Shown here piece after piece: positions 25,412 to 58,660 of a DNA stretch of 64,000 bases. Position 1 is the stretch's first letter; each line of letters opens with the position of its first letter. The stretch lies in sequence record PV357172.2; one strand, 5' to 3'. The stretch is from a phage. A model generated the notes under the pieces. That model saw only the letters and a program-made list of their open reading frames with translations. It searched no databases and was not told the DNA's origin. Position numbers and translations under genes: made by a program.

Positions 25412-25492
25412 TAAAAACAAGGAGATCTTCGGGTCTCCTTTTTCTTTGAAATTTTACTTGCTAATCGCTACCTGATTTGCTATAATATCTAT

Positions 25493-25990
25493 ATGAAATT
25501 AACACAGAGTAGATTAAAAGAGCTAATCTCCTATGACCCTGAAACTGGCGAATTTACCTGGCTCCCAAGAAAAACTTTAGCAAAGCATTTATGGAATGCT
25601 AAAGCAGGAACCTACGATAAATTAGGGTATCTTCGTATAAAAGTTGAAGGAGTTCAATATTTAGCTCATCGCCTAGCCTTCTTGTATATGACTGGAGAAA
25701 TACCGGAAGGAAAAATCGACCATAAAGATACTAATCCGTCTAATTGTGCCTGGGATAATCTCCGTGAAGCCACGAGTTCTCAAAATTCTATGAACTCGTG
25801 TGCAAGATCGGATAACCAGCTTGGAATGAAAAATATTCGTGTAAAAGGCACTTCATTTCAGGTTAGGATAGGCAAAGACGGCAAATCTTATACAAAAACT
25901 TTTAAAACCCTAGAAGAAGCTATAGAATGGAGAGACACCAAACTACTAGAACTTCATGGGGACTTTGCAAACAACGGAGAAGCTAAATGA
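25493..25990 (+). CDS. HNH homing endonuclease (between nrdA and nrdB)
   Basis: HNH motif GEIPEGKIDHKDTNPSNCAWDNL; own promoter-like element upstream. Confidence 0.7.
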   Translation: MKLTQSRLKELISYDPETGEFTWLPRKTLAKHLWNAKAGTYDKLGYLRIKVEGVQYLAHRLAFLYMTGEIPEGKIDHKDTNPSNCAWDNLREATSSQNSMNSCARSDNQLGMKNIRVKGTSFQVRIGKDGKSYTKTFKTLEEAIEWRDTKLLELHGDFANNGEAK

Positions 25991-27132
25991 CTACTTTACT
26001 TAACTTAGAATGGGATCATACTAACGCTGACCTTTTCCTGGGAGATTCTCTTGGTATCGCAGACTATGTTCGTGTTGCTCATCCCGAGCTAGAACGACTC
26101 GCCCTACTGCAGAGGAGCCAGTTTTGGACTGAGACAGAAATCAGTTTAGAAGCTGATAAAAAGCAGTGGGGTAATCTCCCGCGTGAAATTCAGGAAATTA
26201 CACTCCTGAACTTAGCATGGCAAACTCAAACTGATTCCTTTATCAGTCGTGCTCCTGAAGCAGCTATTATGCCACTTGTAAGTCGCCCAGAATTGGAAGG
26301 TATGCTCAAGCAGTGGAGCTACTTCGAAGATCTGCATAGCCGTGCATATAGTAATATTATTCGTAATGTGCTGACTGATCCAGCAGAATTTATTGATTCT
26401 GTAACCAAAAACCAGGAAGCATTCGCACGCATCGCTGATTCTGTTGAGCTATTTGATGAGCTATATCAGTTAGGTCAGTATTTCCTAGCAGTACGTGATC
26501 ATCGTGGCGATAATACTTACCCAGAAACCGAGTTTCCTGAAGTTAAACGTGAAACTCAGGCTAAGCTATTAGACGCTTACTTTGCAATCTACGGTCTGGA
26601 AGCAATGCAGTTTTACGCATCCTTTGCATGTACCTTTGCATTAGCGGAGAACGATATTCTGCAAGGTATTGCTAAAAACCTGCAATTAATCGCTAAAGAT
26701 GAAGCTCTGCACACTCAGATGTCCAAAGCAATCATCCAGATTATGTTTCAGCAATTTGACAAAGATCTGGTAGATGAAGCAGTGGCTAAAGCACCAGCAC
26801 AGCTCCTGAAAACTCTGAAAACTGAAATTGAATGGGGTCATTTCATTTTCAAAGGTCGTAGTCTGATTGGTTTAAATGCAGAACTTCTAGAAGAATATCT
26901 GTATTTTGTGGGACGTAATGCATTTATGCACATCGGTGTAGAATGGCCTAGTCATTTACCAGTAATCACCAAAAACCCTATTCCGTGGATCATGAACTGG
27001 TTGGATACCACTTCTTTACAGCCTGCTCCACAAGAAATCCAGATTGGTGCAGCATATCGTGTAGGTCAAGTCACCGAAACCTCTACTGATACTCTGAAAG
27101 ATCTGGGTAATGAATTTGGAGATTTCTTATGA
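25987..27132 (+). CDS. nrdB: ribonucleotide reductase class Ia small subunit
   Basis: 381-aa ORF following nrdA; helical ferritin-like sequence with conserved E/H positions. Confidence 0.75.
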   Translation: MTTLLNLEWDHTNADLFLGDSLGIADYVRVAHPELERLALLQRSQFWTETEISLEADKKQWGNLPREIQEITLLNLAWQTQTDSFISRAPEAAIMPLVSRPELEGMLKQWSYFEDLHSRAYSNIIRNVLTDPAEFIDSVTKNQEAFARIADSVELFDELYQLGQYFLAVRDHRGDNTYPETEFPEVKRETQAKLLDAYFAIYGLEAMQFYASFACTFALAENDILQGIAKNLQLIAKDEALHTQMSKAIIQIMFQQFDKDLVDEAVAKAPAQLLKTLKTEIEWGHFIFKGRSLIGLNAELLEEYLYFVGRNAFMHIGVEWPSHLPVITKNPIPWIMNWLDTTSLQPAPQEIQIGAAYRVGQVTETSTDTLKDLGNEFGDFL

Positions 27133-27662
27133 TTACAGCAATGTATGCAGTTGGGCCGAATGGGGAGTTCGGCCTCCGCGGTAAACTTCCATGGGGTTCC
27201 TTCAAAGAAGAACTAGATGCTTTCTATTCTCAACTGGACGTGTTGAATCCAGATAACATCATCATTGGTGCGGGTACTTATTTAGCACTTCCAGAAGTTG
27301 TTCGGCAACGTATGATTGGAGAATCAGACCTCTTTATTCGTGCGGATCGTCCTCTGCCTGATGATATTAAACAGGGTATCTATACCCCAATTTCAAAGAT
27401 TGGGGATACATTACCTACATTCTTAAAAGATCAGCAAACAGTAGTTCTAGGCGGTGCAACATTACTGTACGAAATGTATATTCATGGGCATATTGAAAGC
27501 GCTTTTGTATCCACAATCTTTAGTAATCAAAAACTAGAGGCAGATGTACATCTGGATAATACGATTCTAGATTACAACTATGAATCTACTCGTTTAGTTT
27601 ACGCAACTGGCGCAAACAGTGATAACAGCCTGCGATTTGTACAGGAATTGGTTACTTATTAA
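27129..27662 (+). CDS. frd: dihydrofolate reductase
   Basis: N-terminal [22 protein letters not shown] motif. Confidence 0.75.
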
Positions 27663-28516
27663 TGGATCAGTATATCGAAGTTGGAAAACGTATTCTATCA
27701 GAGGGTCAGTGGGTAACGAATCCCAGAACAGGGGTTCGTTGCCTCACCATTATTAACGCAGATTTTACTTTTAATGTAGGTGCAGGTGAATTTCCACTTA
27801 TTACTACCCGTAAGGCGTTTGCAAAACAAGCAATAATGGAAATGATTGGGTATCTACGTGGGTATGATTCAGCAGCACAATTCCGCGCTATTGGTGTTAA
27901 CACATGGAATGCTAATGCAAATGAAAACTTAGCTTGGCTAGACAATCCATACCGTAAAGGTGAGGATGATATGGGACGAGTCTATGGTGTTCAAGGACGT
28001 CAGTGGACTAATTCCGATGGTCTTATGTTTGACCAACTAGCCAAGATTTATCATAACCTGAAGAAGGGCATTGATGATCGTGGGGAAATTCTAACGTTCT
28101 GGAATCCTGGAGAGTTCTCGAAAGGTTGCTTACGTCCATGTATGCACACTCATCAGTTCTCTATTTTGGGGGATACATTATACCTGAACTCTTTCCAGAG
28201 ATCTAATGACTTCCTGTTAGGCCAAGTATTTAACATGGTTCAGTGCTACACGCTTCTAGCATTAATGGCACAGATTACAGGCCTTAAACCAGGGATTGCA
28301 CGCCAGAAGATTATCAATCTTCATATCTATGAGGATCAGTATAATGTTTTGATGGAGCATAAGCAATTCGATCGTGAACCTTTTGCACCTCCTACTCTAG
28401 AAATCAACCCAAATATCCGAACTCTAGAGGATGTATTGACCTGGGTAAGCAAGGATGACTTTACTGTTCGTGGTTACGAGCACCACCCTGCTATTGCATA
28501 TCCATTCACTGTGTAA
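27662..28516 (+). CDS. thyA: thymidylate synthase
   Basis: Catalytic region [10 protein letters not shown] and QRSNDF motifs. Confidence 0.85.
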
Positions 28517-28595
28517 TTCAAATAAAATATTACTTGCTTGATGTCTAAATTTATAATATAATATTTCCTATATGTATATTATAGGGGATTTACTT

Positions 28596-29150
28596 ATGAT
28601 TATAAAAGAAGGATGGACAAAAGAGTCCGCACGAGCTAGATTTATATACAACCCTGATACAGGGGAGATTTTTAACAGAGTAAATAGCGGACGTGCTAGA
28701 AAAGGAGAATTAGCCGGGTATATTGATAAATCTACGGGGTATGTTAGACTAGTATTATCTGGTAAAAGGATTAAAGGACATCAGCTAGCCTTCTTATATA
28801 TGGAAGGCTATATACCTGATACCATAGACCATATTAATAGAATAAAATCAGATAATAAATGGACTAATCTAAGGGAATCATCGGCTCAAGAAAATGCTAG
28901 AAATATTAGGGCAAGAAGTAAATCGGGCTATTTAGGTGTTGGTTGGTATAAGCCAACCCAAAACTGGTGTGTTTATACTAAGGATAAAGATGGAGTCCAA
29001 GTTAACGGAGGCTACTTTGCATACAAAGAACTAGAGTTAGCAGTTCAAAAGGCTAATGAACTTCGCTTACAGTTACATGGAGAAAACGCTGTTATAGAAG
29101 CTTTTGATTCCACAAAACCACTTCCCACATTAGAGGATCTTAATAAATGA
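28596..29150 (+). CDS. HNH homing endonuclease (between thyA and RNase H)
   Basis: HNH motif EGYIPDTIDHINRIKSDNKWTNL; start at ATG 28596 after AGGGGA. Confidence 0.7.
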   Translation: MIIKEGWTKESARARFIYNPDTGEIFNRVNSGRARKGELAGYIDKSTGYVRLVLSGKRIKGHQLAFLYMEGYIPDTIDHINRIKSDNKWTNLRESSAQENARNIRARSKSGYLGVGWYKPTQNWCVYTKDKDGVQVNGGYFAYKELELAVQKANELRLQLHGENAVIEAFDSTKPLPTLEDLNK

Positions 29151-29626
29151 GTACATTCCACGTTTACACAGATGGTGCTTGTAAGTCTAATCCGGGTTTA
29201 GGTGCTTGGGGATTTATTGTCTATGATGATAATGATGATCGTTTAGGTTCTAAATCTGGCTATAACCCTAAAACCACAAATAACGAGATGGAACTCACGG
29301 CTATTGTAGAGGCTCTTCGCTGGTCTGTTAAAAAAGATAATAGACCAATTGCTATCTATACTGATTCTGCTTATTGCAAAAATGGTATGGAAAGTTGGAT
29401 GTTTTCTTGGCAAAGGAAAGGCTGGAAGAAAGCAGATGGTGAAGTTCCTCTTAATCTAGAACTTTGGCAGGAAGCATTTAAATTAACACAGCAGTATATC
29501 AACTTTCATAATACTAATCCTACCTTTATTAAGGTTAAAGGACATTCTGGTATTAGTGGTAATGAAGCTGTAGACGCCTTATGTAATACAGTTATTACTG
29601 AAGCTGAAATGGCTGAGATGTTATAA
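29147..29626 (+). CDS. rnh: ribonuclease H
   Basis: RNase HI signature VYTDGACKSNPGLGAWGF...ELTAIVEAL...IYTDSAYC. Confidence 0.8.
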   Translation: MSTFHVYTDGACKSNPGLGAWGFIVYDDNDDRLGSKSGYNPKTTNNEMELTAIVEALRWSVKKDNRPIAIYTDSAYCKNGMESWMFSWQRKGWKKADGEVPLNLELWQEAFKLTQQYINFHNTNPTFIKVKGHSGISGNEAVDALCNTVITEAEMAEML

Positions 29627-29699
29627 ATAAATTAAAAATTTTCTTGCTTAAAGCCCTCTAATTTAGTATAATATTCGTATTGAAAGTGAGGAGGGCTTT

Positions 29700-29978
29700 A
29701 TGCGAATTTATAACTCAAATTCATTAGGATTTAAACCATTGAGAAAACGTGCACAATCACCTCGTCAAATAAGAAAGGCTAATATTGGTGAGCCAGAGAC
29801 ACGCCTTCCACCTCCTCCAGAACAACGTTTAGTTTATCTGGACGAAGAATTAGCTGAACGCGAAAGAAAAGCTCAAGAAGAGATTGAGCGTAAGAAAATG
29901 TGTACTGCTCCAGCGTATAATAAAGGGGCGTATCAATACGTCTCAGATGCCGAACAAGCTAAGATGGTTGGTAGATAA
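29700..29978 (+). CDS. hypothetical protein (92 aa)
   Basis: ORF track; GAGGAGGG RBS; promoter module upstream. Confidence 0.5.
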   Translation: MRIYNSNSLGFKPLRKRAQSPRQIRKANIGEPETRLPPPPEQRLVYLDEELAERERKAQEEIERKKMCTAPAYNKGAYQYVSDAEQAKMVGR

Positions 29979-29984
29979 TTTTTA

Positions 29985-30030
29985 AAAAATTCATTTGCTA
30001 AACGCTTCAAATTCTTGTATAATATACTTC
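29985..30030 (+). promoter_or_regulatory. sigma70-like strong early promoter
   Basis: TTGCTA at 29995-30000, 17-nt spacer, TGTATAAT at 30016-30023, A/T-rich upstream. Confidence 0.6.
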
Positions 30031-30061
30031 ATAAATTGATAAACAAAAAGGAAAACAAATA

Positions 30062-30577
30062 ATGGCTAAGCAGAAAAACGCAAAAACTCAAGCAGCTCCG
30101 GCAGTTAAAACTTTCCCGAAGACTGAGGCTAATCGCAAAGCTCGGCTGGAACGTCACCTGCGTAAGCATCCTACCGATGCTCAGGCTGCGCAAGCACTGA
30201 ATAATCCGGCTCCGATTCGTAAGAAGCCTAAAGCTAAAAATGCCACCCGTAAATCCTACAAAATGGTTATGTATGTAGAAAATTACGGCCACAAATCTGT
30301 CCCAGTTTCCCTGAGCTTCAACGCTGGAGCTGAATTGTTCTCTCGTAATGGTATGTCTATGAAAGACTATGAGAAGGCAGTTAACCAGAAGCGTAAACCA
30401 ACAGCAGATGTATTGCGTGATACTCGTGGACAGTTTGGTTCTGTTAAGCCAAATATCTTTGGCGTAGAGTATAGTAAAGATAATGTTCGTGCTCTGTGTT
30501 ACGGTGTAGGCATTAAGTTCACGGGTGATTCTGCTCGTAAATCTGCTAAACCAGCTCGTAAACGTAAAGCGAAGTAA
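30062..30577 (+). CDS. basic Lys/Arg/Ala-rich protein, possibly nucleic-acid binding
   Basis: 171-aa ORF; strong codon bias; basic termini. Confidence 0.5.
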   Translation: MAKQKNAKTQAAPAVKTFPKTEANRKARLERHLRKHPTDAQAAQALNNPAPIRKKPKAKNATRKSYKMVMYVENYGHKSVPVSLSFNAGAELFSRNGMSMKDYEKAVNQKRKPTADVLRDTRGQFGSVKPNIFGVEYSKDNVRALCYGVGIKFTGDSARKSAKPARKRKAK

Positions 30578-30641
30578 TAGATAAATAGGGGCAGAAGCCC
30601 CTACAATCTACTAATTCTCTAACTAATCAAGGATATTTTTT

Positions 30642-30857
30642 ATGTTCTCTAAGAAACCACGTTCCGTTACTGAAATCGTTGCTTCCTTTACCACTATCAC
30701 TGATGAGCTTCAAGCTCGTATTGAGGCTGATCAAAAAATTGCGGCGGATATTCAGAAACAGCAGGAAGAACTCGCTTTAAAGTTGGCTGAAACCAACAAG
30801 AGTGAAAAATCTGCCCAAACTATTATGGAAAATATTCTTAAACTGCTGGGCGAGTAA
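30642..30857 (+). CDS. hypothetical protein (71 aa)
   Basis: ORF track; flanked by GC hairpins. Confidence 0.45.
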   Translation: MFSKKPRSVTEIVASFTTITDELQARIEADQKIAADIQKQQEELALKLAETNKSEKSAQTIMENILKLLGE

Positions 30858-30899
30858 TTTAAGTTAGGGGGCGAAAGCCCCTCTTAGTTTGGAGAAACT

Positions 30900-31136
30900 A
30901 TGCGTAATTTTGTAGCAAAGAATGATTTTAACCGTGCTAGCACTCATAAGTCCGCTAGAGATTATACACGACTTTCTAGTCACGAGGTAATGGATACCTG
31001 TTATGAAGAGCTGGAAGGTAGCTGGGATGAATGGCCCGACTTCTCTATGGAAGAGAACTGGGATGTCAGTGAGGATATGCTTCCTGGTTTTAAAGACCCC
31101 AAGAAGTGGGAGTCTATTAAAGAGACAGCTCTTTAA
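30900..31136 (+). CDS. hypothetical protein (78 aa)
   Basis: ORF track; GGAGAAACT RBS. Confidence 0.45.
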   Translation: MRNFVAKNDFNRASTHKSARDYTRLSSHEVMDTCYEELEGSWDEWPDFSMEENWDVSEDMLPGFKDPKKWESIKETAL

Positions 31137-31164
31137 TAGTTTTCTACACAGTAAAGGATAAGTT

Positions 31165-31866
31165 ATGAAAGTAAAACCATTTGGTATGCTAGATATTGAA
31201 TCTCTAGGAACTCCAGGAGATTGTGGTACTACTCATATCGTAATGCCTTCTTTCGCTTTTGTGGCTATGCATGGGGTTGATAAAGACCCTGATCTAGTAT
31301 TTGTTACTTTGGATGTGCAGGATCAGCTTAATTCTGGTGCCAAAGTTACAGCATCTACTCTAGCATTCTGGATGGATCAAGCTAAAAATAGCCCGTCTGC
31401 TATCCACATTATGGAAGCTATGAAGGAACGTAATCCAAAACTGATTGCCTTCCAAAATGGTAAACATCATTGCACTAATAAATTAGGCTCAAACTATGCT
31501 GCCTTCTCTATGGCTCAAAATATTATGGAGTTGGCTCTAGGCGAAAATGCTTTGTATTATGGCAATGGCCCAGAGTTTGATATGACTATCTACTCTGCAA
31601 ATACGTTCCATGCTGGAACCAATGAAGAGGTAGTTCCGTGGAAATTCTGGAATTTGGGCAATGTTCGATCTCTTCGTAATCTCTGGATGCAAGCTGGATA
31701 CAGTTATAAGGCTCTAGAGACCGAAGGTATTAGCTGGGCAATAGCTAAAATGGAGAAGATGGACACTATTCGTTATGGGATATATCCGGTTAAGCACGAC
31801 CCAGCATTCGATGCCTTAGTTGAGAGCTATTGTGTTGCGGCTATGATCGAAAAAATGAAAATTTGA
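31165..31866 (+). CDS. putative DEDDh-family 3'-5' exonuclease
   Basis: Exo I-like MLDIESLG and Exo III-like HDPAFDALVESY motifs. Confidence 0.5.
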   Translation: MKVKPFGMLDIESLGTPGDCGTTHIVMPSFAFVAMHGVDKDPDLVFVTLDVQDQLNSGAKVTASTLAFWMDQAKNSPSAIHIMEAMKERNPKLIAFQNGKHHCTNKLGSNYAAFSMAQNIMELALGENALYYGNGPEFDMTIYSANTFHAGTNEEVVPWKFWNLGNVRSLRNLWMQAGYSYKALETEGISWAIAKMEKMDTIRYGIYPVKHDPAFDALVESYCVAAMIEKMKI

Positions 31867-31936
31867 TTTGCTTCCGGCTCCAAAATTCTGTATAATATAT
31901 TCATAAATTTGAGAAAACAATAAAAGGAAAACAAAT

Positions 31937-32119
31937 ATGCCAGTATCTAAAAATGTTCGTAAAAATGGTAAGAAAGCTACTCGTAATCTGGGTATCCGTC
32001 GTATGGCTGAACGTCAATCAGGTATCCAGAAAATCTTTGATCTGTTAAATCGTGCTAATCCTAAAATTGATAACAGTAAAGATACTGTTCTGCGTACCTT
32101 ACTGGCAATGGGTCTGTAA
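31937..32119 (+). CDS. small basic protein (60 aa)
   Basis: ORF track; promoter module and AAAAGGAAAACAAAT leader upstream. Confidence 0.45.
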   Translation: MPVSKNVRKNGKKATRNLGIRRMAERQSGIQKIFDLLNRANPKIDNSKDTVLRTLLAMGL

Positions 32120-32171
32120 TAGACCAACTTTAAACAAATTCAAATCTTAAACTTCATATAAGGAAGAAACA

Positions 32172-32810
32172 ATGACTACTCGTATTTCTAAAACTCGCGA
32201 TCTGGCAACTATCAAATCTCTGGAAGCTAAAATCCGTAAAGCTACTGAACAACAGCTTCTGATCGCTGTTGGTGAAGGTAAGGATAAAAATAAGGTTGTA
32301 GTTGGCGCTGCAATCGAAGTAGACGATCTGTCTGCTCGTATTAAGGCAGATTTCCAATCTCTCCTAGATATGATGTCCCAGCGTGATCGTATCAAAGCTG
32401 CTCTGATTAAGAGCAATGCGGAAACAGTAGTTGAGATTGGTTCTCGTAAAATGACTGTTGCAGAAGCAATTGAAGCTAAGCGTTCTATGGAGCTTAAAGC
32501 TCAGTTGCTGGCTAATATGCGTAAGCAGTTCCATGCCGCTACGGTTAAGTTTAATACGCAGAAAGCACAGTTTGATGCTAAATATGAGCGTTTGCAGGAT
32601 AGCATGGCTACCCGCGATAAGAAAACTTCCGAAGATGAAGTTAAAATGCAGCTCAACCTGCTGGAACTCAAGAATACTCCATTCTTGATTGATCCGCTGG
32701 AGCTGGAGAAGCTGATCAAGCAGCACGACGAAGAATATCAGGACTTTGCAACTAATGTTGACTTTGTTCTGTCTGAGTCTAATGCCTCTACTTTCATTGA
32801 AGTAGAGTAA
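32172..32810 (+). CDS. coiled-coil protein of unknown function (212 aa)
   Basis: ORF track; strong codon bias; heptad-like sequence. Confidence 0.5.
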   Translation: MTTRISKTRDLATIKSLEAKIRKATEQQLLIAVGEGKDKNKVVVGAAIEVDDLSARIKADFQSLLDMMSQRDRIKAALIKSNAETVVEIGSRKMTVAEAIEAKRSMELKAQLLANMRKQFHAATVKFNTQKAQFDAKYERLQDSMATRDKKTSEDEVKMQLNLLELKNTPFLIDPLELEKLIKQHDEEYQDFATNVDFVLSESNASTFIEVE

Positions 32811-33252
32811 TAATTTAAAAGCTAGTAAATCGGTAGACGAAAGCCCAAGCATCTTACCTCGCAGCAGCGGTTGAAATACGAGGTTAAATAAGACCGCTGA
32901 CCATACTATAAAGTATAATCTATTGGAGATTATGTTTATTACATCAGACATTTAATCTGACACGTAAAAACAAAGAGTCGTTGATATTACCGACACAACT
33001 TCAAAGATCAACATTTAAGTATGAAAGCTGAAAAGTTTAAAGAACTCAAACTTCTAAACTTCTAAAGCTAAAAGATGCAAAGTATTCGTTGATGATTCAA
33101 ACCCTAGATCAAAGGTACATGGCTCATAAGATATGGCCTGTGGCGCCTCTAGGCTGTTTATCGGTTTACTAGTTTCACAATTTAAAAATGTATTTGCTAA
33201 TCTACTAAATTATATGTATAATATATTTTTAAATTGATGAAACGAGGCTATT

Positions 33253-34074
33253 ATGGGTAAATTACAAAAACAAATACTACCACATATAGATTATATTCGA
33301 GAAATTATAGAGTATAATCCTTATACTGGTAAATTATTTTATAAGCCTAATAAATACAAGAATAAAACTTGGCACACCCTATATGCTGGGAGAGAAATAT
33401 GTAGTAAGAACTCTGATGGGTATATCAGAGTTAGTTTGCTCTTAGATAATAAACCCACAATTATTTATGGACACCGAATAGCGTGGTTGCTCCATTATGG
33501 TGAAGAGCCTCCTTATATGATCGACCATATAAATACCATACCGTGGGATAACAGAATTGTTAATCTAAGAGAGACAAATTTTAAGTTAAATAGGATTAAT
33601 ACTAATAAAACCGTAGGTGTAGAACTCCTCCCCGAGGGTTTTGTGTATAGCATTACATTAGGTGGAAAGTTTTTCGTATCTCCTGGCTTCACCACTTTCG
33701 AACAAGCTAAAGGGGAAAGAGAAAAACTAGTAAATGGTTTATGTAATGCAGAAATTGGGAAGCAGACCAATATTCTAATAGACGATGTTAGAGATCTACC
33801 TGAAATGTCCATTATTTGTCGTACAGTTATAGGTGCGCTGGAACTATCAGATATGTTTAGTTTTACTGGTTCCTACCTATTTATGGACTCAGATCTAGGA
33901 GACCCAGAAGTACAAGGAAAAGACTTATTAGATTATATACTCTTTTTAGGTCAAAGACCTTTGAAAGTAGTTCTAGTAACATCCAACCCTGTTGACGCAG
34001 AGTACATGAGAGGTACTCTTACGTCTTATGGTTATCGAGAAAATCCCAATAGGTTAGAATATGACCTATTTTAA
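33253..34074 (+). CDS. HNH endonuclease with C-terminal extension
   Basis: HNH motif YGHRIAWLLHYGEEPPYMIDHINTIPWDNRIVNL in N-terminal half. Confidence 0.65.
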   Translation: MGKLQKQILPHIDYIREIIEYNPYTGKLFYKPNKYKNKTWHTLYAGREICSKNSDGYIRVSLLLDNKPTIIYGHRIAWLLHYGEEPPYMIDHINTIPWDNRIVNLRETNFKLNRINTNKTVGVELLPEGFVYSITLGGKFFVSPGFTTFEQAKGEREKLVNGLCNAEIGKQTNILIDDVRDLPEMSIICRTVIGALELSDMFSFTGSYLFMDSDLGDPEVQGKDLLDYILFLGQRPLKVVLVTSNPVDAEYMRGTLTSYGYRENPNRLEYDLF

Positions 34075-34086
34075 GGAGTAAAAAGA

Positions 34087-34536
34087 ATGAAGGCAGCTTT
34101 GCTTTTAGTAGCTGCCCTTACCTTCAGCTTTAGTAGTCAGGCATCGCACGATGCAAAAGAAATAGATTGCATTGCTAAAAATATCTATTTTGAAAGTCGT
34201 GGTGAGGGCATAAATGGAATGATGGCGATTGCACATGTTACTAAAAACCGTGTAAACTCCGGTAAATTCCCAGATTCCTACTGTAAAGTAGTATATCAGT
34301 CTACCCAGTTCTCTTGGGTATCTAAGAGACCAAAAGTTGATAAAACGGATGAGGCTTGGCAAACCGCTAAGAATTTAGCTAGAGTGATATACTACGTTGA
34401 TTTACCACAAGATCCAACACATGGAGCACTATACTTCCATAGTGGTAAAGATAAACCTTACTGGACAAAGAAGTTTAAGAAAACAACGAAGATTCAAGGC
34501 CATACGTTCTACAAGCCTGCGGTCACTAAAACTTAA
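34087..34536 (+). CDS. secreted SleB-like cell wall hydrolase
   Basis: Signal peptide MKAALLLVAALTFSFSSQA; motif NIYFESRGEG...AIAHVTKNR typical of the SleB/Hydrolase_2 family. Confidence 0.55.
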   Translation: MKAALLLVAALTFSFSSQASHDAKEIDCIAKNIYFESRGEGINGMMAIAHVTKNRVNSGKFPDSYCKVVYQSTQFSWVSKRPKVDKTDEAWQTAKNLARVIYYVDLPQDPTHGALYFHSGKDKPYWTKKFKKTTKIQGHTFYKPAVTKT

Positions 34537-34605
34537 AAATTTATTTGCTTAAATACTTAAACTTCTGTATAATACTTTCATAAATTAATGAGAGGAAGCG
34601 AAATA

Positions 34606-34776
34606 TGAAGAACTTGATCGTCATTGGTGTTAACACTCGCGGTATTCGTACTACGAAAACTATTAAAACTTCTAACGTTGCTGAAATCACTACGAACCCT
34701 AAAAAGTTTGATTTCGCCAAAGTCTCAGCAGTTATGACGGAGCAATCTTTTAACCAAGCGTTAGGACTGAAATAAT
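34606..34776 (+). CDS. small protein (about 56 aa)
   Basis: Below track threshold; ATG at 34606 directly after promoter module and GAGAGGAAG RBS. Confidence 0.4.
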
Positions 34777-35218
34777 GGAAGAGAATATTTTAGATGTTTT
34801 GCGTAGAGCTTTGCAGGATTCTAAGTTTAATGGTTCTGATAAAGAAGTCGCTAAAAGCTATCAGACCATAATCGGGGATCTTCAGCGTATTGATAAAGAT
34901 TTCATCACTTCTGAACAATTTGTGTCTTATCTCAAAGCTCAACTAAAAAGCATTAACCAGATGAAAGCTAAACTTCATGGTCAAGATCTTGATAGTTATA
35001 GCTTGCAGTCCGCTCAGTATGAATACATTCTAAATAAGTGGTTGCAGGAGTATCTGCCTCCTCAGTTATCTGATACTGAGATTCGTAAATACTTTGCAGA
35101 ATTAGTTAAGCTAAACCCTGGAATTACAAAAGGTATGCTGATGAAAGCGATTAAGGAAGAATTTCCTGGGCGTTATGATGGTGGTACTGCTGCTCAGATT
35201 GCTGGCGAATTTAATTAA
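34775..35218 (+). CDS. hypothetical protein (147 aa)
   Basis: ORF track; ATGA start-stop overlap with preceding small ORF. Confidence 0.5.
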   Translation: MEENILDVLRRALQDSKFNGSDKEVAKSYQTIIGDLQRIDKDFITSEQFVSYLKAQLKSINQMKAKLHGQDLDSYSLQSAQYEYILNKWLQEYLPPQLSDTEIRKYFAELVKLNPGITKGMLMKAIKEEFPGRYDGGTAAQIAGEFN

Positions 35219-35478
35219 AAATTTACTTGCTAAATGCTTATAAATTCTGTATAATATATTCATAAATTAGGGAACAGCGAGCCGATTACGCTGAGTGCAG
35301 AATCCCAACCGGAGCGCATTGAATAGAGTCGGTGGGTTAGTTGTAAAACTAGTACACAGGGGGCGGCAATCCCGGTTAGTGGCTAGAACGTGTAAAATGA
35401 GGCGTCTGAAACCTCTCCCCTAAACTCTTCTCTAATTTATAAATAGTGGGGTGTGGAAATCACTTATGTAGTAACACT

Positions 35479-35550
35479 GCCGTCCTAGTATAATTGGTAT
35501 TATCAAGCCGTAACTGGTGGAAGATGTAGGTTCGAATCCTACGGTCGGTA
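35479..35550 (+). tRNA. tRNA-like element (possibly degenerate; anticodon not resolved)
   Basis: T-arm GTAGG-TTCGAAT-CCTAC and a 7-bp acceptor with one mismatch; anticodon stem does not fold cleanly. Confidence 0.3.
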
Positions 35551-36052
35551 AGAACTGGATAACTGATGCTTTTAACGTAAAAGCTTCCGAGGTTAGTTGC
35601 GCACTGCCTAAACCACGCGGTAGTTGGTTCCAGACTAACCAACCAGTCTGCTGAATAGTTTTATTACGATTTAACTATGCCCAGGCTAAAGAAGAACTTT
35701 AGAAGGTATTCTAGGATAGTGAAGTTCTTTCTCCATATCGGAGTAGTTTTTCAAGCTATCCACAAAGTGGGAAATGCTGACATGAGAGATGTCACTAATG
35801 GTGCACAATAGCACAGGTAATTCGCGATAACCCCTGTTGAGTAGCAGCAAAAGGCGGGAAGTCATGACCCCAAGCCTAACCGAGTCCTCAATATACCGCA
35901 GGACATAACCACTAAGTCCCCCTGACTTAAACTGGAAAATAATAGACGTTACTGTATTTTGTCTTGAAATACTTAATGAGTGAGACTTATGACTCTCCCG
36001 GTATCGTCTGTATTTTTAAGAGTTTTTACGAGAGTTCTTAAAAATACTTAAA

Positions 36053-36127
36053 CGGGGTGTAGTCTAAGGGAGAGGCAGGAGTCTTCTAAATTCCTTTATG
36101 CAGGTTCGAATCCTGTCACCTCGGCCA
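36053..36127 (+). tRNA. tRNA-Arg (anticodon TCT)
   Basis: Hand-folded cloverleaf: acceptor CGGGGTG/CACCTCG, anticodon loop CTTCTAA, T-arm GCAGG-TTCGAAT-CCTGT, encoded CCA. Confidence 0.65.
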
Positions 36128-36161
36128 ATTTTATTAACTGTAGCTAAAACAAAGGAAATAT

Positions 36162-37109: not shown

Positions 37110-37145
37110 TATCCGCATGTAATCTCTGAAGTAAGCCCTGTGTTC

Positions 37146-37299: not shown

Positions 37300-37350
37300 A
37301 GTTAAAAAATTCGATTGCTTGAATGCTAAATTCTCTGTATAATATATTTA
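37300..37350 (+). promoter_or_regulatory. sigma70-like strong early promoter
   Basis: TTGCTT at 37315-37320, 17-nt spacer, TGTATAAT ending at 37343. Confidence 0.6.
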
Positions 37351-37373
37351 TAAATTTGAGAGAGGAATCAAAT

Positions 37374-39116: not shown

Positions 39117-39150
39117 TAGCCCTCAAAGCGAGGGCTATTATCCAGAAAAT
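39117..39150 (+). terminator. rho-independent terminator (weak U-tract)
   Basis: Hairpin AGCCCTC-AAAGC-GAGGGCT followed by ATTATCC. Confidence 0.4.
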
Positions 39151-39151
39151 T

Positions 39152-39192
39152 TCACTTGCTAAATGCCGAGATTTTCTGTATAATATATTTAT
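39152..39192 (+). promoter_or_regulatory. sigma70-like promoter driving tRNA transcription
   Basis: TTGCTA at 39156-39161, 17-nt spacer, TGTATAAT ending at 39184; tRNA-Ser begins about 15 nt downstream. Confidence 0.6.
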
Positions 39193-39198
39193 AAATTC

Positions 39199-39290
39199 GG
39201 AAGATTAACCCTAATTGGTAAGGGAGCATCTTGCTAAGTTGCCAGTAGCTGTGGAAACACGGTGTATCGGTTCAAGTCCGATATCTTCCT
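39199..39290 (+). tRNA. tRNA-Ser (anticodon GCT), long variable arm
   Basis: Perfect acceptor GGAAGAT/ATCTTCC, anticodon loop TTGCTAA, variable-arm hairpin, T-arm ATCGG-TTCAAGT-CCGAT, encoded CCA. Confidence 0.7.
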
Positions 39291-40389: not shown

Positions 40390-40478
40390 CTCCTCCAAGC
40401 AGAAATTTTAAAAATGTACTTGCTTTTTACTTAAGATTTCTGCTATAATAGTTATATAAGTTGATGAGAGGAATCAGA

Positions 40479-40754: not shown

Positions 40755-40882
40755 CTGATACAGCACTGAGCAAGTTCTTTAAAATTTGACTTGCTCAGTA
40801 CCTTAAAACTTGGTATAATAGTTATCTAATTTGGAAACATATTTAAAAGTATTCAAATACTAGTTTAAACACTTTTAAATGT

Positions 40883-42271: not shown

Positions 42272-42587
42272 CCAAATTTAGGTTTCTGCTTCCTAGAGAA
42301 CGGACTCCTAGATAAACAAGGCGATGAGTTTCCGGCCGGTTCTAGTCGCTGAAAATCCTCCCGACCAGGTAGGTGTAAGTAAATGAAAGTTTACTTATTG
42401 AGTAGGTTCCGATAGACCGGCGGGTCTATTCTGGCATTTAAGAGAGGTCTCGCAAACTTCTTTGTCAGCCGTGGGGTTGGTAGCCTCCAGGTGGCCTACA
42501 CAATAAGTAAATTTATTAAAAATTCATTTGCTATTCTGCTTAATTCTCTGTATAATATATTTTATAAAGTGAGTTAACAAAAATTAA

Positions 42588-43460: not shown

Positions 43461-43748
43461 CCAATTTCAAGAAAAACTCAGTTGCTTGATGCTTAATTTC
43501 TTGTTATAATATTTATATAAATTGATGAGGAGAAATCCTCATCATAGTTCACTAAGGTATTAGCTCGACCTAGGACTGGCTGCCAAAAAGCACGATCCCT
43601 ACGATTTGGGAGAAGTTCTAGATTAGTCCACTAGATTCAGCGGCAACTGAATAGTGTATCGGTTTTGCGAGATGACGCGGTTCCTTCCGCTCGAAGCGAA
43701 GGTGCTGTAGTTACGCCGAGCTAATAGCCTTAGTAAACTAAGGAATTT

Positions 43749-46489: not shown

Positions 46490-46567
46490 CCAAAATTAAA
46501 AAATTCATTTGCCTTCTCTCTTATTTCTTGTTATAATATTTATATAAATTAATGAGAGGGAAACCAA

Positions 46568-46935: not shown

Positions 46936-46944
46936 CCAAATTAT

Positions 46945-47017
46945 AGTTAGTTGGCAGAGTGGTTATGCACCTCCTTCATACGGAGCGACTACAGTGGTTC
47001 AAATCCACTACTAACTA
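46945..47017 (+). tRNA. tRNA with CAT anticodon (Met or Ile2)
   Basis: Perfect acceptor AGTTAGT/ACTAACT, anticodon loop TTCATAC, T-arm AGTGG-TTCAAAT-CCACT, CCA. Confidence 0.6.
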
Positions 47018-48437: not shown

Positions 48438-48513
48438 ATTCTGAAATAATTCATTTGCTAAACCTCTCTTTTCTTGCTATAATATATTTATAAATTGATG
48501 AGAGAGGTTTGAA

Positions 48514-50030: not shown

Positions 50031-50140
50031 AGAACTCGCGTAGGACCGAGTTGCGTCACCTGCAACTGTTACGGATAAGGGAGTCGTGCCCCTTAGTGCG
50101 GTAAGTGGTGAGGTGGCTGCTAGCCCTAACTGGAGATAAT

Positions 50141-50527: not shown

Positions 50528-50570
50528 AAAGCCCAGCCTGCACTTTTGCGACTGGGCTATTTTTATAATA
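50528..50570 (+). terminator. rho-independent terminator
   Basis: Hairpin GCCCAGCC...GACTGGGC followed by TATTTTTA. Confidence 0.45.
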
Positions 50571-50639
50571 AAATTTTAGTTGCTTAGATGCCCAAACTTT
50601 TGTATAATATGTTTATAGATTGAGGCAAGAGGATTAAAT

Positions 50640-53436: not shown

Positions 53437-53546
53437 AAATTCTTCTTGACAACGACAAAATTTTATGCTCCAGAAGTGATCTTTAAAAACACATTGTAAT
53501 TTTCCTCCAAAATTAGTATAATGGTACTGGTTAGAGGAGGTTACAA

Positions 53547-54203
53547 TTGGAAAAGTTCTTACAATTATTAACGGTACTGCTCCAAGAAGCGAAAGATCCA
53601 GCATCGCTTCTTAAACGTCTGCTAACTATCTTAGTTGCTGTCATTATTTTCTTATTTGTTAGTAATACTAGCGAGGTGATGTCATTCTTAAAGACTTTCT
53701 CCACGTCTGCGGTTCTACAGGATGTTCAAACTCAAAGGATAGATAACTTTCCTAATGTAGCTAGAGAAAAGAGCATGGTACTTTTTTCTCAAACGGGTGC
53801 GGATGCTGTTTTTGTCGTCAAGTATAAACCAGATGCTATTAATGATTATTCTAACATTATTGCATGGGAAAGCAATGCGCAATTAGATAGGGCTGACTTG
53901 GCCGATAAAGCGGTAAATAAAACGTCTGAGCTATATAGACGTCACTTGGAGGGCTTTAACTACGCATCGGATTTAAGTGTAAAAGTAAATAAATACATGG
54001 GGTTAAATATACCTGCGTTTAAGAACGTTACTTTTAATTACATATACACTTGTCCGTATTTCAATCTAAACAATATCTATGCTGGATATATTGGTATTGC
54101 TTGGAAAGATAACCCTGTAGATGCAGCCGATTCTGAGAAATTTAAGGAATATTTAACAAAGCTCTGTTCACCACAACAGAGATCTTTAGGTAGATCAATA
54201 TGA
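53547..54203 (+). CDS. putative T-type holin (single N-terminal TM, large periplasmic domain)
   Basis: 218 aa, one TM (LLTILVAVIIFLFV); TTG start after GAGGAGGT; immediately precedes endolysin with ATGA overlap. Confidence 0.5.
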   Translation: MEKFLQLLTVLLQEAKDPASLLKRLLTILVAVIIFLFVSNTSEVMSFLKTFSTSAVLQDVQTQRIDNFPNVAREKSMVLFSQTGADAVFVVKYKPDAINDYSNIIAWESNAQLDRADLADKAVNKTSELYRRHLEGFNYASDLSVKVNKYMGLNIPAFKNVTFNYIYTCPYFNLNNIYAGYIGIAWKDNPVDAADSEKFKEYLTKLCSPQQRSLGRSI

Positions 54204-55107: not shown

Positions 55108-55182
55108 GATAAAAAAGTAGTTGACTTTTAGCCCTAGTTATTATATAATATATACATAAATTAGTTAAGAGAGGTATATATT

Positions 55183-55614: not shown

Positions 55615-55897
55615 ATTAGTATATCTATTAAAAGGTTCCACCTGTAACCCGTGTAAACTTTTCGAGCCAGTATTTGATAAAGTAGTCAATGAATATAATT
55701 TGGAAGTCCATAAAGAGACTGATAATACAGAATTAATGCAGAAATTTGGCGTACGCCAAGTTCCTGTAGTAGTTCTGGCGGATCGCTTACCTAATGGTCG
55801 AGTAGAAGCTAATCATATTTTGATTGGACGTCAGCTTCGTAAAGAAACTATGCACGAAGCTATTAAAAATTTCCTGGATGATAATCCAGAGGATTAA
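55607..55897 (+). CDS. thioredoxin/glutaredoxin-like redoxin
   Basis: CxxC active-site-like CNPC near N-terminus; 96 aa. Confidence 0.5.
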   Translation: MSKLVYLLKGSTCNPCKLFEPVFDKVVNEYNLEVHKETDNTELMQKFGVRQVPVVVLADRLPNGRVEANHILIGRQLRKETMHEAIKNFLDDNPED

Positions 55898-55928
55898 TAA
55901 ACCAAGCCTGATCTTAGCGGATCAGGCT
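55894..55928 (+). terminator. rho-independent terminator
   Basis: Hairpin AAGCCTGATC-TTAGCG-GATCAGGCTT followed by TTATTTT. Confidence 0.6.
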
Positions 55929-55994
55929 TTTATTTTACTTGCTTTCAGCTAAAAATTTTGGTATAATACTTATATAAATTGATAGGAGGATTAA

Positions 55995-57106: not shown

Positions 57107-57393
57107 TGAATGATAGAATGAAAGAAGTACAAGAAGAATTACGAGCAATGCGTATTGATGCCCTTCGTTGGAGGGCATTAGTTAATGCTTTCGTCAAAGG
57201 AGATACCGGAGTAATATATTCTGGAATAGCAGTCAATTTTTGTTTTAATTCTCCTGCTGAAATAGAGATAGAAACAAGGCTTACTACCTACCTTAATGAG
57301 GTAGACCTTAAGGAAGGAGAGACTCCCGAGGAGTTTAAAACTAGAGTATTAACTACCTGGGTTGATAATTTAATACAAAAAAGGAGTAAGTGA
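57106..57393 (+). CDS. hypothetical protein (95 aa)
   Basis: ORF track; start and stop overlaps with neighbours. Confidence 0.4.
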   Translation: MNDRMKEVQEELRAMRIDALRWRALVNAFVKGDTGVIYSGIAVNFCFNSPAEIEIETRLTTYLNEVDLKEGETPEEFKTRVLTTWVDNLIQKRSK

Positions 57394-57983
57394 TGAAGGT
57401 TAAATTCTGGTCAGACTTGCACTTAGACCACCCTGGAGCACTACGTTTCCGTCCGTGGTTTAAGAACATGAAAGAGCACGATGAGTATATTCTAGATACT
57501 TTGTCCAAGCATATTGGTAAACGAACAAAACTTATTTTGCTAGGAGATATTGCAGTAGGTCGTGAAGGTCTGGCCAAATTAAAGTCGGTTATCCACAATG
57601 TCCCTAATCAACTCATTATGGGTAATCATGATGCGGAGCGTCAAGGACTGAGTATTAGGGACTTAGCGGAAGTTTATGATGATATTCAGGCTCTAGGTAA
57701 ACAGACTGGAGGTGGCAAAAAGTTTTGGCTATCTCACTGCCCTTTGCATCCCAATGAACTTCGTGGCAAACTAAATATTCATGGACACGTACATACTACT
57801 TCTCTACGTGATCCACGTTATATCAATGTTTCATTTGAAATGAGTAAAACTCCAATTCCTCTAGAGGATATTGTGTCTGGTAAGTTTACTAGCTATGATA
57901 AAGTAGTTAATTGTACTACCGGCGAGGTATTACAAATAGGGGAAGACGTAGCTGCTGTATTACGTGGGGATATAAATGTCTGA
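57393..57983 (+). CDS. calcineurin-like metallophosphoesterase (second copy)
   Basis: Motifs DLHLDHP, GDIAVG, GNHD, GHVH; ATG at 57393 after AAGGAG. Confidence 0.6.
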   Translation: MKVKFWSDLHLDHPGALRFRPWFKNMKEHDEYILDTLSKHIGKRTKLILLGDIAVGREGLAKLKSVIHNVPNQLIMGNHDAERQGLSIRDLAEVYDDIQALGKQTGGGKKFWLSHCPLHPNELRGKLNIHGHVHTTSLRDPRYINVSFEMSKTPIPLEDIVSGKFTSYDKVVNCTTGEVLQIGEDVAAVLRGDINV

Positions 57984-58150
57984 GTATATAGCTGAGGCTA
58001 TTATTAAACGAATCATACAAGCGATAGCAATACTTATAATCATTTGTATTGCTATTGGTACAGGATTAGGCATTTTAATTAAAAGTTTTATTTGCTAAAA
58101 TGCTTAAGTTTCTGTATAATTACTTTATAAATTGATGAGAAGGAATCAAA

Positions 58151-58582
58151 ATGAACAAAGTTGATAAAGCTCTAGTTTTCGCAGCAGCAGATAAGTTTGA
58201 ACAAGTTAAGGCAACTTTCCGAACCTTGTTCCAGTCTTACGTTCAGGATAAGTCTAATCCTATCTCTGAACGTTTGATGGTCTGGGAATGTCATGCTTGC
58301 AATGCCCTATTAATTGCGGATTATCGTAGCGATATAGATAAAGATCTGTGCGAAATTCTTATCGCTGAGGAGGCAGAACGTTATCAGTTAATCTCTTTCC
58401 AAGATTTGGCGGAGCATATCATTCCTGATGATCTTTGGGATAAATACTACGGTGATCCTGAGGACGAAGGATTGACTCCAGAAGCCTGTATTGAGCTAAT
58501 CTGCAAAGATCATCCTGAAATTGCAGAGAAATTTGAAAAAGTTTTTGCTTCTGAGTTCTCCGGCGTTGTTAACGATTGGTAA
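58151..58582 (+). CDS. hypothetical acidic protein (143 aa)
   Basis: Promoter module and GAGAAGGAATC leader upstream. Confidence 0.5.
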   Translation: MNKVDKALVFAAADKFEQVKATFRTLFQSYVQDKSNPISERLMVWECHACNALLIADYRSDIDKDLCEILIAEEAERYQLISFQDLAEHIIPDDLWDKYYGDPEDEGLTPEACIELICKDHPEIAEKFEKVFASEFSGVVNDW

Positions 58583-58660
58583 GTAATTAAAAAATTCAGT
58601 TGCTTTAAGCCTTAAAATTCTGTATAATAAGTTCATAAATTAATGAGAGAGGAAATTCTA

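What the first reader, a model, noticed from the sequence alone, without database searches (positions are those of the whole stretch)
25441..58660. About 20 copies of a conserved 60-70 bp promoter-leader module
The module is A/T-rich upstream, then TTGCT(A/T), a 16-17 nt spacer, TGTATAAT, then ATAAATTGATGAGAGG-like leader ending at the ATG. It precedes most plus-strand transcription units and, reverse-complemented, several minus-strand ones (for example upstream of 9177, 7728, 11406, 19051). The conserved leader beyond the -10 suggests shared translational or RNA-level control, and the copies are potential recombination substrates.
Basis: seen in the sequence. Interest (0 to 1): 0.4.

Follow-up and report, generated by a model that had tools for sequence, protein, structure and literature searches.

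The report
Phage T5-type early promoters, already known
The repeated 64-bp module is the well-known strong early promoter of phage T5 and its relatives (one copy is the P-N25 promoter, widely used as a model of transcription initiation), joined to a short ribosome-binding leader, so the finding is real but ordinary.

Summary
The window is the early region of a T5-like phage (Demerecviridae). It holds 29 copies of a ~64-bp module: 22 on the + strand (21846-58651) and 7 on the - strand (3720-19120).

The module reads AAAAaTTtA, TTGCTt, a 17-bp (three times 18-bp) spacer, TATAAT, ATaTtt, ATAAATT, then gatGAGAGG. The strict core gives 13 hits against 0.05 expected. ATAAATT lies 6 nt after TATAAT at 19 of 102 hexamers against 0.4 expected.

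Every copy sits at the place of a promoter annotated in phage T5 (AY543070), 25 of them with clear sequence matches. These include P-N25 (identical over 66 nt), P-N26, P-K28a, P-H207, P-D/E33, P16-17, P15a-c, P14a, P13a/b and P11.

The conserved "leader" has two parts. ATAAATT is the start of the transcript; it also occurs in copies that drive tRNAs. GAGAGG is a ribosome-binding site found almost only before proteins, with the ATG 21-27 nt (twice 32-34) after +1.

The leaders are unstructured and match no Rfam family. The recombination idea is not supported.

Verdict: already known, low interest. Side note: three HNH endonuclease genes abut modules, and one has its ATG at the predicted +1.

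The parts
21846..21909 (+). Early promoter module; counterpart of T5 promoter 53638-53712. Drives the PhoH-like gene (ATG 21963, 70-nt leader).
25446..25509 (+). Early promoter module; counterpart of T5 50061-50135. The consensus transcript start is replaced: an HNH ORF has its ATG (25493) at the predicted +1.
28522..28585 (+). Early promoter module with a degenerate transcript start (positional counterpart of T5 46937-47011). Followed by an HNH ORF, ATG 28596.
29632..29695 (+). Early promoter module; counterpart of T5 46337-46411. ORF ATG 29700.
29983..30046 (+). Early promoter module; counterpart of T5 P-H207. ORF ATG 30062.
31856..31919 (+). Early promoter module; counterpart of T5 44393-44467. 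ORF ATG 31937.
33182..33245 (+). Early promoter module; counterpart of T5 43067-43141. ORF ATG 33253.
34533..34596 (+). Early promoter module; counterpart of T5 P-D/E33. ORF ATG 34605.
35215..35278 (+). Early promoter module; counterpart of T5 P16-17. Drives a non-coding RNA/tRNA stretch; ATAAATT kept, no SD.
37303..37366 (+). Early promoter module; counterpart of T5 P15a. Drives a NadR-like ORF, ATG 37374.
39144..39207 (+). Early promoter module; positional counterpart of T5 P15b. tRNA-Ser starts 8 nt after +1; ATAAATT kept, no SD.
40408..40472 (+). Early promoter module with an 18-bp spacer; counterpart of T5 P15c. ORF ATG 40479.
40779..40842 (+). Early promoter module (TTGCTC -35); counterpart of T5 P14a. 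No SD-preceded ORF of at least 40 aa starts within 200 nt.
42516..42579 (+). Early promoter module; counterpart of T5 P13a. tRNA-Pro starts at 42588.
43470..43533 (+). Early promoter module; counterpart of T5 P13b. Drives an RNA2H-like stretch and tRNA-Ala. A hairpin (GATGAGGA-GAAA-TCCTCATC) starts at +8.
46497..46560 (+). Early promoter module (TTGCCT -35); counterpart of T5 P11. ORF ATG 46568.
48443..48506 (+). Early promoter module; counterpart of T5 26722-26796. ORF ATG 48514.
50568..50631 (+). Early promoter module; counterpart of T5 24443-24517. ORF ATG 50640.
55109..55172 (+). Early promoter module with a TTGACT -35, found only by the PWM scan; counterpart of T5 19368-19442. ORF ATG 55183.
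55927..55990 (+). Early promoter module abutting the terminator hairpin at 55904-55929, whose T-run replaces the A-tract; counterpart of T5 18550-18624. ORF ATG 55995.
58080..58143 (+). Early promoter module; positional counterpart of T5 P-F30. ORF ATG 58151.
58588..58651 (+). Early promoter module; near-identical to T5 16245-16319 (local alignment score 70 of 75). ORF ATG 58661.
19057..19120 (-). Early promoter module abutting an upstream hairpin + T-run (read by eye); counterpart of T5 55708-55782, which a terminator overlaps in the T5 record. ORF ATG 19051.
15410..15474 (-). Weaker module (TTGCAA, 18-bp spacer, ATAATTG start); positional counterpart of T5 58999-59073, upstream of the origin-binding-protein gene.
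11415..11478 (-). Promoter P-N25, identical to T5 over 66 nt. +1 is at 11431; drives the D2 gene, ATG 11406.
10401..10464 (-). Promoter P-N26 counterpart; drives the D3 gene, ATG 10366 (51-nt leader).
9185..9248 (-). Early promoter module; counterpart of T5 65284-65358. 90-aa ORF (GTG 9177), then ligase subunit A.
7733..7796 (-). Promoter P-K28a counterpart; drives ligase subunit B, TTG 7728.
3720..3784 (-). Module with an 18-bp spacer (TTGCTG); counterpart of T5 70987-71061. Drives the 855-aa ORF (TTG 3681) that stands where T5 has its DNA polymerase gene.
60601..61062 (+). Context, not part of the repeat: homologue (152/153 aa identical) of T5 gp026, the RNA polymerase-binding protein reported to weaken polymerase contacts with the -5/+2 segment of such promoters.

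Best explanation
The 29 copies are the host-sigma-70-dependent early promoters of a T5-like phage, each joined to a short standard leader. They are the counterparts of the T5 promoters P-N25, P-N26, P-K28a, P-H207, P-D/E33, P16-17, P15a-c, P14a, P13a/b, P11 and others.

**How it most likely works**
- E. coli or Salmonella RNA polymerase with sigma-70 binds a near-optimal core: TTGCTt, a 17-bp spacer and a perfect TATAAT.
- An A-tract at -46..-37 probably helps as an UP-like contact for the alpha subunit.
- The A/T-rich discriminator (ATaTtt) and the A/T-rich start of the transcript (ATAAATT, +1..+7) favour stable open complexes and fast promoter escape.
- In copies before protein genes, GAGAGG at about +11..+16 is the ribosome-binding site, and the start codon follows 21-27 nt (twice 32-34 nt) after +1 on an unstructured leader.
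- Copies before tRNAs or stable RNAs have the core, and most keep the first 7 transcribed bases, but not the ribosome-binding site.

One strong promoter about every 1.7 kb gives massive, simultaneous early expression.

**Shown here:** the sequence anatomy, the statistics, and the positional and sequence correspondence to annotated T5 promoters.

**Taken from the literature:** the transcript start of P-N25 and the role of its initial transcribed sequence.

**Inferred:** activity of each individual copy in this phage, and the alpha-subunit contact.
For: **Origin of the window**
- It is T5-like, about 95% identical to Tequintavirus/Epseptimavirus genomes.

**Statistics**
- Enrichment over shuffles.
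- The conserved block is bounded at -47..+17.
- ATAAATT (at most 1 mismatch) sits 6 nt after 19 of 102 TATAAT hexamers against 0.41 expected, and all 19 are module copies.

**Correspondence to T5**
- AY543070 annotates 'promoter P-N 25' at the place homologous to window 11415-11478, and about 40 further promoter features, nearly all 75 bp, across its early region.
- All 29 window copies sit at the place of one of them. In 25 the best-scoring T5 promoter is that positional counterpart (48-70 of 75); four are assigned by position only.
- T5's own promoters show the same consensus.

**Literature**
- Klimuk 2020 (PMC7472727): T5 uses host sigma-70 RNA polymerase. TATAATAGATTCAT is -12..+2 of N25. 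Primer extension confirmed 11 of 19 promoters tested. All early promoters share ATATT in the discriminator, and an UP element is marked in their alignment.
- Hsu & Han 2025 (PMC12464699): N25 is limited at the escape step, and replacing +3..+20 lowers full-length RNA about 10-fold.

**Splitting transcript start from ribosome-binding site:**

**Leader length:** 21-27 nt in 17 of 19 short-leader protein copies, 32 and 34 nt in the other two.

**Spread:** the same module occurs in many viral contigs of T5-like size, 104-128 kb.
Against: - No transcript data exist for this particular phage.
- A few copies are degenerate (15410-15474, 28522-28585, 25446-25509) and may be weaker or differently regulated.
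- The papers that first described the conserved -43 and +7 regions (Gentz & Bujard 1985; Kammerer et al. 1986) could not be read here. That attribution rests on my memory and on citations.
- The UP-element role is inferred from sequence only.
Confidence: 0.95

Rival explanations
1. An added layer rather than a replacement: the shared discriminator plus transcript start (ATaTtt/ATAAATT) is a class mark. Through it, phage factors such as gp026-modified RNA polymerase switch all early promoters down together at the early-to-late transition.
For: - Klimuk 2020 reports that gp026 lowers RNA polymerase binding to the -12/+2 N25 non-template oligonucleotide 8-fold.
- The same paper reports that early and late T5 promoters differ mainly in the discriminator, and that a gp026 mutant makes more early and fewer late transcripts.
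- The window encodes a gp026 that is 99% identical.
- The discriminator and +1..+7 together hold about 11 bits of conservation.
Against: - The effects of gp026 on transcription in vitro were two-fold or less.
- Conservation of the transcript start is already explained by promoter escape.
- No late promoters lie in this window, so no contrast could be made here.
Confidence: 0.3
2. The conserved leader acts at the RNA level. The A/U-rich 5' end (AUAAAUU) upstream of the ribosome-binding site would be a translational enhancer (for example a ribosomal protein S1 contact), or the target of a shared RNA-binding regulator.
For: - Leaders are short (21-27 nt in 17 of 19, 32-34 in two), A/U-rich and unstructured, with a uniform GAGAGG site.
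- From general knowledge, this layout favours efficient initiation.
Against: - ATAAATT is also present in copies that drive tRNAs or stable RNAs, where nothing is translated (3 of 5 in register).
- There is no conserved structure (mean z -0.39) and no Rfam family match.
- No candidate binding partner was identified.
Confidence: 0.15
3. The copies are mobile or recombinogenic promoter cassettes that spread, and that shuffle gene modules, by recombination between copies (in the manner of the promoter/stem-loop cassettes of T4-type phages).
For: - Homology breakpoints against IMG/VR relatives fall inside modules 11 times out of 152, against 5.4 expected (p=0.02).
- A few pairs of copies share 27-29 identical bases.
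- Three HNH genes abut modules.
Against: - Measured against gene junctions in general there is no excess: 19/28 with a module against 45/86 without, p=0.19.
- The median shared exact stretch is 9 bp, and flanks outside -47..+17 are not conserved.
- 25 of 29 copies resemble their positional T5 counterpart (48-70 of 75) more than any other annotated T5 promoter (runner-up 25-46).
- The T5 st0 deletion is annotated at a 10-bp repeat inside ORFs.
Confidence: 0.05

Closest known systems
Phage T5 early promoters (P-N25, P-N26, P-K28a, P-H207, P-D/E33 and others), as annotated in GenBank AY543070/AY692264
   Same: - Same genomic places and the same consensus: A-tract, TTGCTt, 17 bp, TATAAT, ATATT discriminator, ATAAATT.
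- The P-N25 copy is identical over 66 nt.
   Different: - This is another member of the T5 group, about 95% identical to its nearest database relatives.
- T5's P12 and P14b were not the best match of any window copy.
- Different genes follow some promoters. For example, a NadR-like gene follows P15a where T5 has T5.076.
Other strong phage early sigma-70 promoters (T7 A1, lambda PL)
   Same: They are recognised by unmodified host RNA polymerase, and output depends on the initial transcribed sequence.
   Different: Those occur as a few promoters at one genome end. Here about 30 near-identical promoters are spread through 55 kb, each with its own short leader.
Promoter/stem-loop cassettes of T4-type phages (recalled from memory: Arbiol et al. 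2010)
   Same: A repeated early promoter unit at the borders of small gene modules in a large lytic phage.
   Different: - No stem-loop follows the promoter here.
- There is no significant link to mosaic borders once gene junctions are the baseline.
Intergenic repeats that carry promoters in halovirus HF2 (PMC8707807, seen)
   Same: Many copies of a repeat tens of bases long (58 and 29 bp in HF2), several of which were cloned upstream of a reporter gene to test for promoter activity.
   Different: An archaeal transcription system with unrelated sequence. It is an analogy only.

Membership tests
T5-type early sigma-70 promoters | TTGCTW-type -35 and TATAAT -10 hexamers separated by 17 (+/-1) bp | tested here: met
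   29 copies: 26 with a 17-bp spacer and 3 with 18 bp.
T5-type early sigma-70 promoters | A-rich block centred near -43 | tested here: met
   AAAAaTTtA holds 10.0 bits over -47..-36. It is replaced by a terminator T-run in two copies (55927, 19120).
T5-type early sigma-70 promoters | ATATT-type discriminator shared by early promoters (Klimuk 2020) | tested here: met
   Consensus A-T-a-T-t-t, 4.3 bits; literature.
T5-type early sigma-70 promoters | Conserved initial transcribed sequence, as in P-N25 (ATAAATT...) | tested here: met
   19 of 29 copies have at most 1 mismatch in register, against 0.41 expected among 102 TATAAT hexamers. Two more are shifted by 1 nt, one an exact ATAAATT (30018) and one with a further mismatch (42551).
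T5-type early sigma-70 promoters | Same genomic place and sequence as a mapped or annotated T5 promoter | tested here: met
   All 29 are placed. In 25 the best-scoring T5 promoter is the positional counterpart (48-70 of 75); four are placed by position only.
T5-type early sigma-70 promoters | Initiation by host sigma-70 RNA polymerase with early kinetics | not testable with these tools
   Known for T5 itself. There are no RNA data for this phage.
UP element (alpha-subunit contact) | A/T-rich tract at about -46..-38 resembling the proximal subsite (consensus recalled from memory) | tested here: inconclusive
   The sequence fits, and Klimuk's Figure S5 marks an UP element. Binding was not tested.
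Extended -10 promoters | TG at -15/-14 (TGnTATAAT) | tested here: not met
   G is at -13 in 16 of 25 copies (TGTATAAT, one base out of register). G is at -14 in only 9 of 25, so at most about a third of copies can carry TGn.
Structured cis-regulatory leader RNA (riboswitch, attenuator) | Conserved secondary structure or an Rfam family match | tested here: not met
   Rfam finds only tRNAs. Leaders have mean MFE -3.2 kcal/mol and mean z -0.39.
Mobile promoter cassettes (T4-type) | Promoter followed by a stem-loop, and copies marking mosaic borders | tested here: not met
   There is no stem-loop. Breakpoint frequency is 19/28 against 45/86 junctions, p=0.19.

The most novel reading that the evidence does not exclude
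The invariant discriminator plus first seven transcribed bases (ATaTtt/ATAAATT) is not only an escape-optimised sequence. It would be the cis-acting class mark through which phage proteins, such as the RNA polymerase-binding gp026 encoded at 60601-61062, shut down all ~30 early promoters together. The discriminator part has already been proposed for T5; extending the mark to +1..+7 would be a modest step beyond that.
Probability: 0.2. Interest if true: 0.4.

Novelty: already known. Interest (0 to 1): 0.08.

Why it matters
It matters little as a discovery. These promoters have been studied since the 1980s, and P-N25 is a standard model for transcription initiation and promoter escape. The GenBank records of T5 already annotate them one by one.

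The value here is annotation. The window can be labelled as the early region of a T5-like phage, with 29 transcription starts placed to the base. The shared 'leader' can be read as two stacked signals, a transcript start and a ribosome-binding site, rather than as a new regulatory RNA.

How T5 turns these promoters off late in infection is still open. The conserved discriminator and transcript start are the obvious place to look.

Tried and rejected
- **Generic sigma-70 scan.** The consensus scan was uninformative: 59 sites against 62.4 expected. Only the specific module stands out.
- **RNA element.** Rfam gave only tRNAs, and folding the leaders showed no structure. I rejected a structured RNA element.
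- **Recombination substrate.** I tested this four ways. The raw two-fold excess of breakpoints inside modules (p=0.02) disappears when gene junctions are the baseline (p=0.19).
- **Chance or low complexity.** Rejected on the shuffles.
- **Literature.** Gentz & Bujard 1985 and Kammerer et al. 1986 are not held. A search for T5 transcript-start or transcriptome data found nothing relevant.
- **Technical.** Loci L002 and L005 (T5 9001-34000) never reached the Python sandbox. I brought those T5 promoters in through DNA alignment instead.
- **Circularity.** PWM scores of the training copies are circular. Only the copies outside the training set (55144, 40444, 3748) and the offset test count as independent support.

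Full report
**What the window is.** BLAST of 28000-40000 and of 1-25000 against GenBank phages finds several hundred T5-like phages of Salmonella, Escherichia and related hosts. The best are about 95% identical. The relatives checked belong to Demerecviridae, genera Tequintavirus and Epseptimavirus.
- The layout is that of the T5 early region.
- Replication genes lie on the - strand up to about 21.6 kb.
- From 21.9 kb on, + strand genes for nucleotide metabolism, 19-20 tRNAs and many small ORFs follow.

- The strict pattern TTGCTW-N15-18-TGTATAAT occurs 13 times against 0.05 expected. A looser form occurs 17 times against 1.27.
- A hexamer scan allowing one mismatch, followed by a position-weight-matrix scan, gives 29 copies. 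The best score in 20 randomised windows was 0.6 bits. Copies not used to build the matrix scored 8.6-30.6 bits.
Seven are on the - strand (3720-19120).

**Where the conservation lies.** It is sharply bounded. The information content after small-sample correction is:

| Segment | Bits |
|---|---|
| A/T block -47..-36 | 10.0 |
| Spacer | 7.7 |
| Discriminator | 4.3 |
| +1..+7 | 6.6 |
| +8..+17 | 4.6 |
| Flanking columns | 0.05-0.12 per column |

The module is therefore about 64 bp. Among all 102 TATAAT hexamers of the window, 19 have ATAAATT (at most 1 mismatch) exactly 6 nt downstream, against 0.41 expected, and all 19 are module copies.

**What it is.** The copy at 11415-11478 (-) is promoter P-N25 of phage T5.
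- T5 record AY543070 annotates 'promoter P-N 25' at the homologous place. The two sequences are identical over 66 nt.
- The same record annotates about 40 promoters across the T5 early region, nearly all as 75-bp features. Their alignment gives the same consensus.
- Each of the 29 window copies sits at the place of one of them. In 25 the best-scoring T5 promoter is that positional counterpart (48-70 of 75). Four (28557, 39179, 58115, 15438) are assigned by position only.
- Named counterparts are P-N26 (10401-10464), P-K28a (7733-7796), P-H207 (29983-30046), P-D/E33 (34533-34596), P16-17 (35215-35278), P15a/b/c (37303, 39144, 40408), P14a (40779), P13a/b (42516, 43470), P11 (46497) and P-F30 (58080).
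In those loci 239 distinct core-matching sites again show the same flanking consensus.

**How it works.** Three points come from the literature.
- T5 has no RNA polymerase of its own. All classes of genes are read by host polymerase with sigma-70 (PMC7472727).
- That paper gives TATAATAGATTCAT as -12..+2 of N25, which places +1 at the A of ATAAATT. It reports primer-extension support for 11 of 19 previously mapped promoters. It states that all early promoters share ATATT in the discriminator, and its Figure S5 also marks an UP element.
- Hsu & Han 2025 (PMC12464699) summarise that N25 binds polymerase extremely well and is limited at promoter escape. They also report that replacing +3..+20 (the 'antiDSR' variant of Kammerer et al. 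1986) lowers full-length RNA about ten-fold.

The conserved sequence beyond the -10 is thus a known functional part of the promoter.

**My own dissection separates two signals.**
- ATAAATT (+1..+7) is kept exactly in 3 of the 5 copies that drive tRNAs or stable RNAs. A fourth has a near-match (ATAAAGT) shifted by 1 nt.
- A Shine-Dalgarno-like GAGG/GGAG within +8..+19 is present in 16 of 19 short-leader protein copies. It is present in only one RNA-leading copy, where it forms the stem of a hairpin.
- In the protein-leading copies the start codon lies 21-27 nt after +1 in 17 of 19, and 32 and 34 nt in the other two. This is why the conserved block seems to 'end at the ATG'.
- The leaders are unstructured, with mean MFE -3.2 kcal/mol and mean z -0.39 against shuffles. 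Rfam reports nothing but tRNAs.
- The TG before the -10 is one base out of register for a canonical extended -10 in most copies: G is at -13 in 16 of 25 and at -14 in 9 of 25.

**The recombination idea.**
- Paralogous copies share a median of 9 and at most 29 identical bases.
- Sequence outside -47..+17 is not shared.
- 25 of the 29 copies resemble their positional T5 counterpart more than any other annotated T5 promoter. This argues against homogenisation between copies.
- The classical T5 st0 deletion is annotated at a 10-bp repeat inside two ORFs, not in promoters.
- I compared the window with the IMG/VR loci and clustered 419 internal alignment ends into 152 breakpoints. Eleven fall in modules against 5.4 expected (p=0.02).
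- Breakpoints cluster at gene junctions in general (90 of 152). Junctions with a module are not significantly richer than those without: 19/28 against 45/86, p=0.19.

The idea is not supported, although this test is coarse.

**Comparison with what is known, and novelty.** This is the T5 early promoter class. It is already annotated in the T5 GenBank records and has been studied for decades. P-N25 is a standard model promoter for transcription initiation and escape.
- All sequence-level defining features are met.
- Only transcription in this particular phage could not be tested.
- The one open question it touches is how early promoters are shut off. Klimuk et al. point to the discriminator and to gp026, and the window encodes a 99% identical gp026 at 60601-61062.

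**Seen in passing.** Three HNH_3 endonuclease genes abut modules.
- **ORF 25493-25990.** It begins 6 nt after the TATAAT of module 25446-25509, so its ATG is at the predicted +1. There is no ribosome-binding site, and a terminator-like hairpin lies just upstream.
- **Homology break at this site.** Of 393 phage records that match this stretch, only 29 continue through the junction. In 9 of the 12 listed rows the match stops at window 25488, two bases after the -10 hexamer. A four-way alignment shows an invariant promoter followed by three different downstream sequences: the nrdB leader, T5 hegH with its own ribosome-binding site, and this leaderless form.
- **ORF 28596-29150.** This second HNH gene follows the module with the most degenerate transcript start.
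- **ORF 11475-11933 (-).** This third HNH gene ends at the upstream edge of P-N25, exactly where homology to T5 begins.

**Verdict.** The feature is already known, and interest is low.

Noticed in passing
window 25481-25990 (+): An HNH_3 endonuclease ORF (165 aa, 42% identical to T5 hegH) has its ATG at 25493, exactly the predicted +1 of the promoter (TATAAT at 25481-25486). It has no ribosome-binding site, and a terminator-like hairpin lies at about 25421-25445. This may be a leaderless mRNA. Only 29 of 393 matching phage records continue through the junction, and in 9 of the 12 listed rows homology stops at 25488. Phage SB13 annotates the same start codon.
   Followed up: partly
window 28522-29155 (+): A second HNH_3 ORF (ATG 28596, 184 aa) sits between a module with a degenerate transcript start and the RNase H gene. 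Its 3' end (29155) is a breakpoint shared by nine alignment ends, so it looks like an inserted cassette.
   Followed up: partly
window 11475-11933 (-): A third HNH_3 ORF ends at the 5' edge of the P-N25 module. Most relatives, T5 included, align only from 11477 downstream.
   Followed up: partly
window 55904-55929 (+); by eye also upstream of the modules at 19120 (-) and 25446 (+): Terminator hairpins directly abut the next promoter. In two of them (55904-55929 and the one before 19120) the T-run takes the place of the promoter's A-tract. T5 annotates the same overlaps.
   Followed up: partly
window 60601-61062 (+): Homologue of T5 gp026 (152/153 aa identical), the RNA polymerase-binding protein reported to affect contacts with the discriminator of these promoters.
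   Followed up: yes
window 37374-38429 (+): A NadR-like gene (cytidylyltransferase-like + AAA_28 domains) follows the P15a counterpart. T5 has T5.076 there, a gene that lies in the region the BF23 paper (PMC10644984) reports as deleted in BF23 and as holding the anti-retron gene Rad. So there is different cargo behind the same promoter.
   Followed up: no
window 35479-35550 (+): Rfam reports a tRNA-like match (35.5 bits) that ARAGORN does not call. It lies in the stretch that corresponds to T5's 'RNAX' stable RNA downstream of P16-17.
   Followed up: no
window 43524-43543 (+): A perfect 8-bp hairpin with a GAAA loop (GATGAGGA-GAAA-TCCTCATC) begins at +8 of the P13b counterpart, at the 5' end of the RNA2H-like stable-RNA region.
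   Followed up: no
window 62022-62050 and 53494-53522 (+): Promoter-like sites of a different type, without ATAAATT. TTGACG-17-TATAAT with TGn resembles T5 promoter 13212-13286 (same TTGACG -35; correspondence by eye, not aligned). TTGTAA-17-TATAAT lies upstream of ORF 53547-54203, the size of T5's putative holin gene, where T5 annotates promoter 20998-21071.
   Followed up: no
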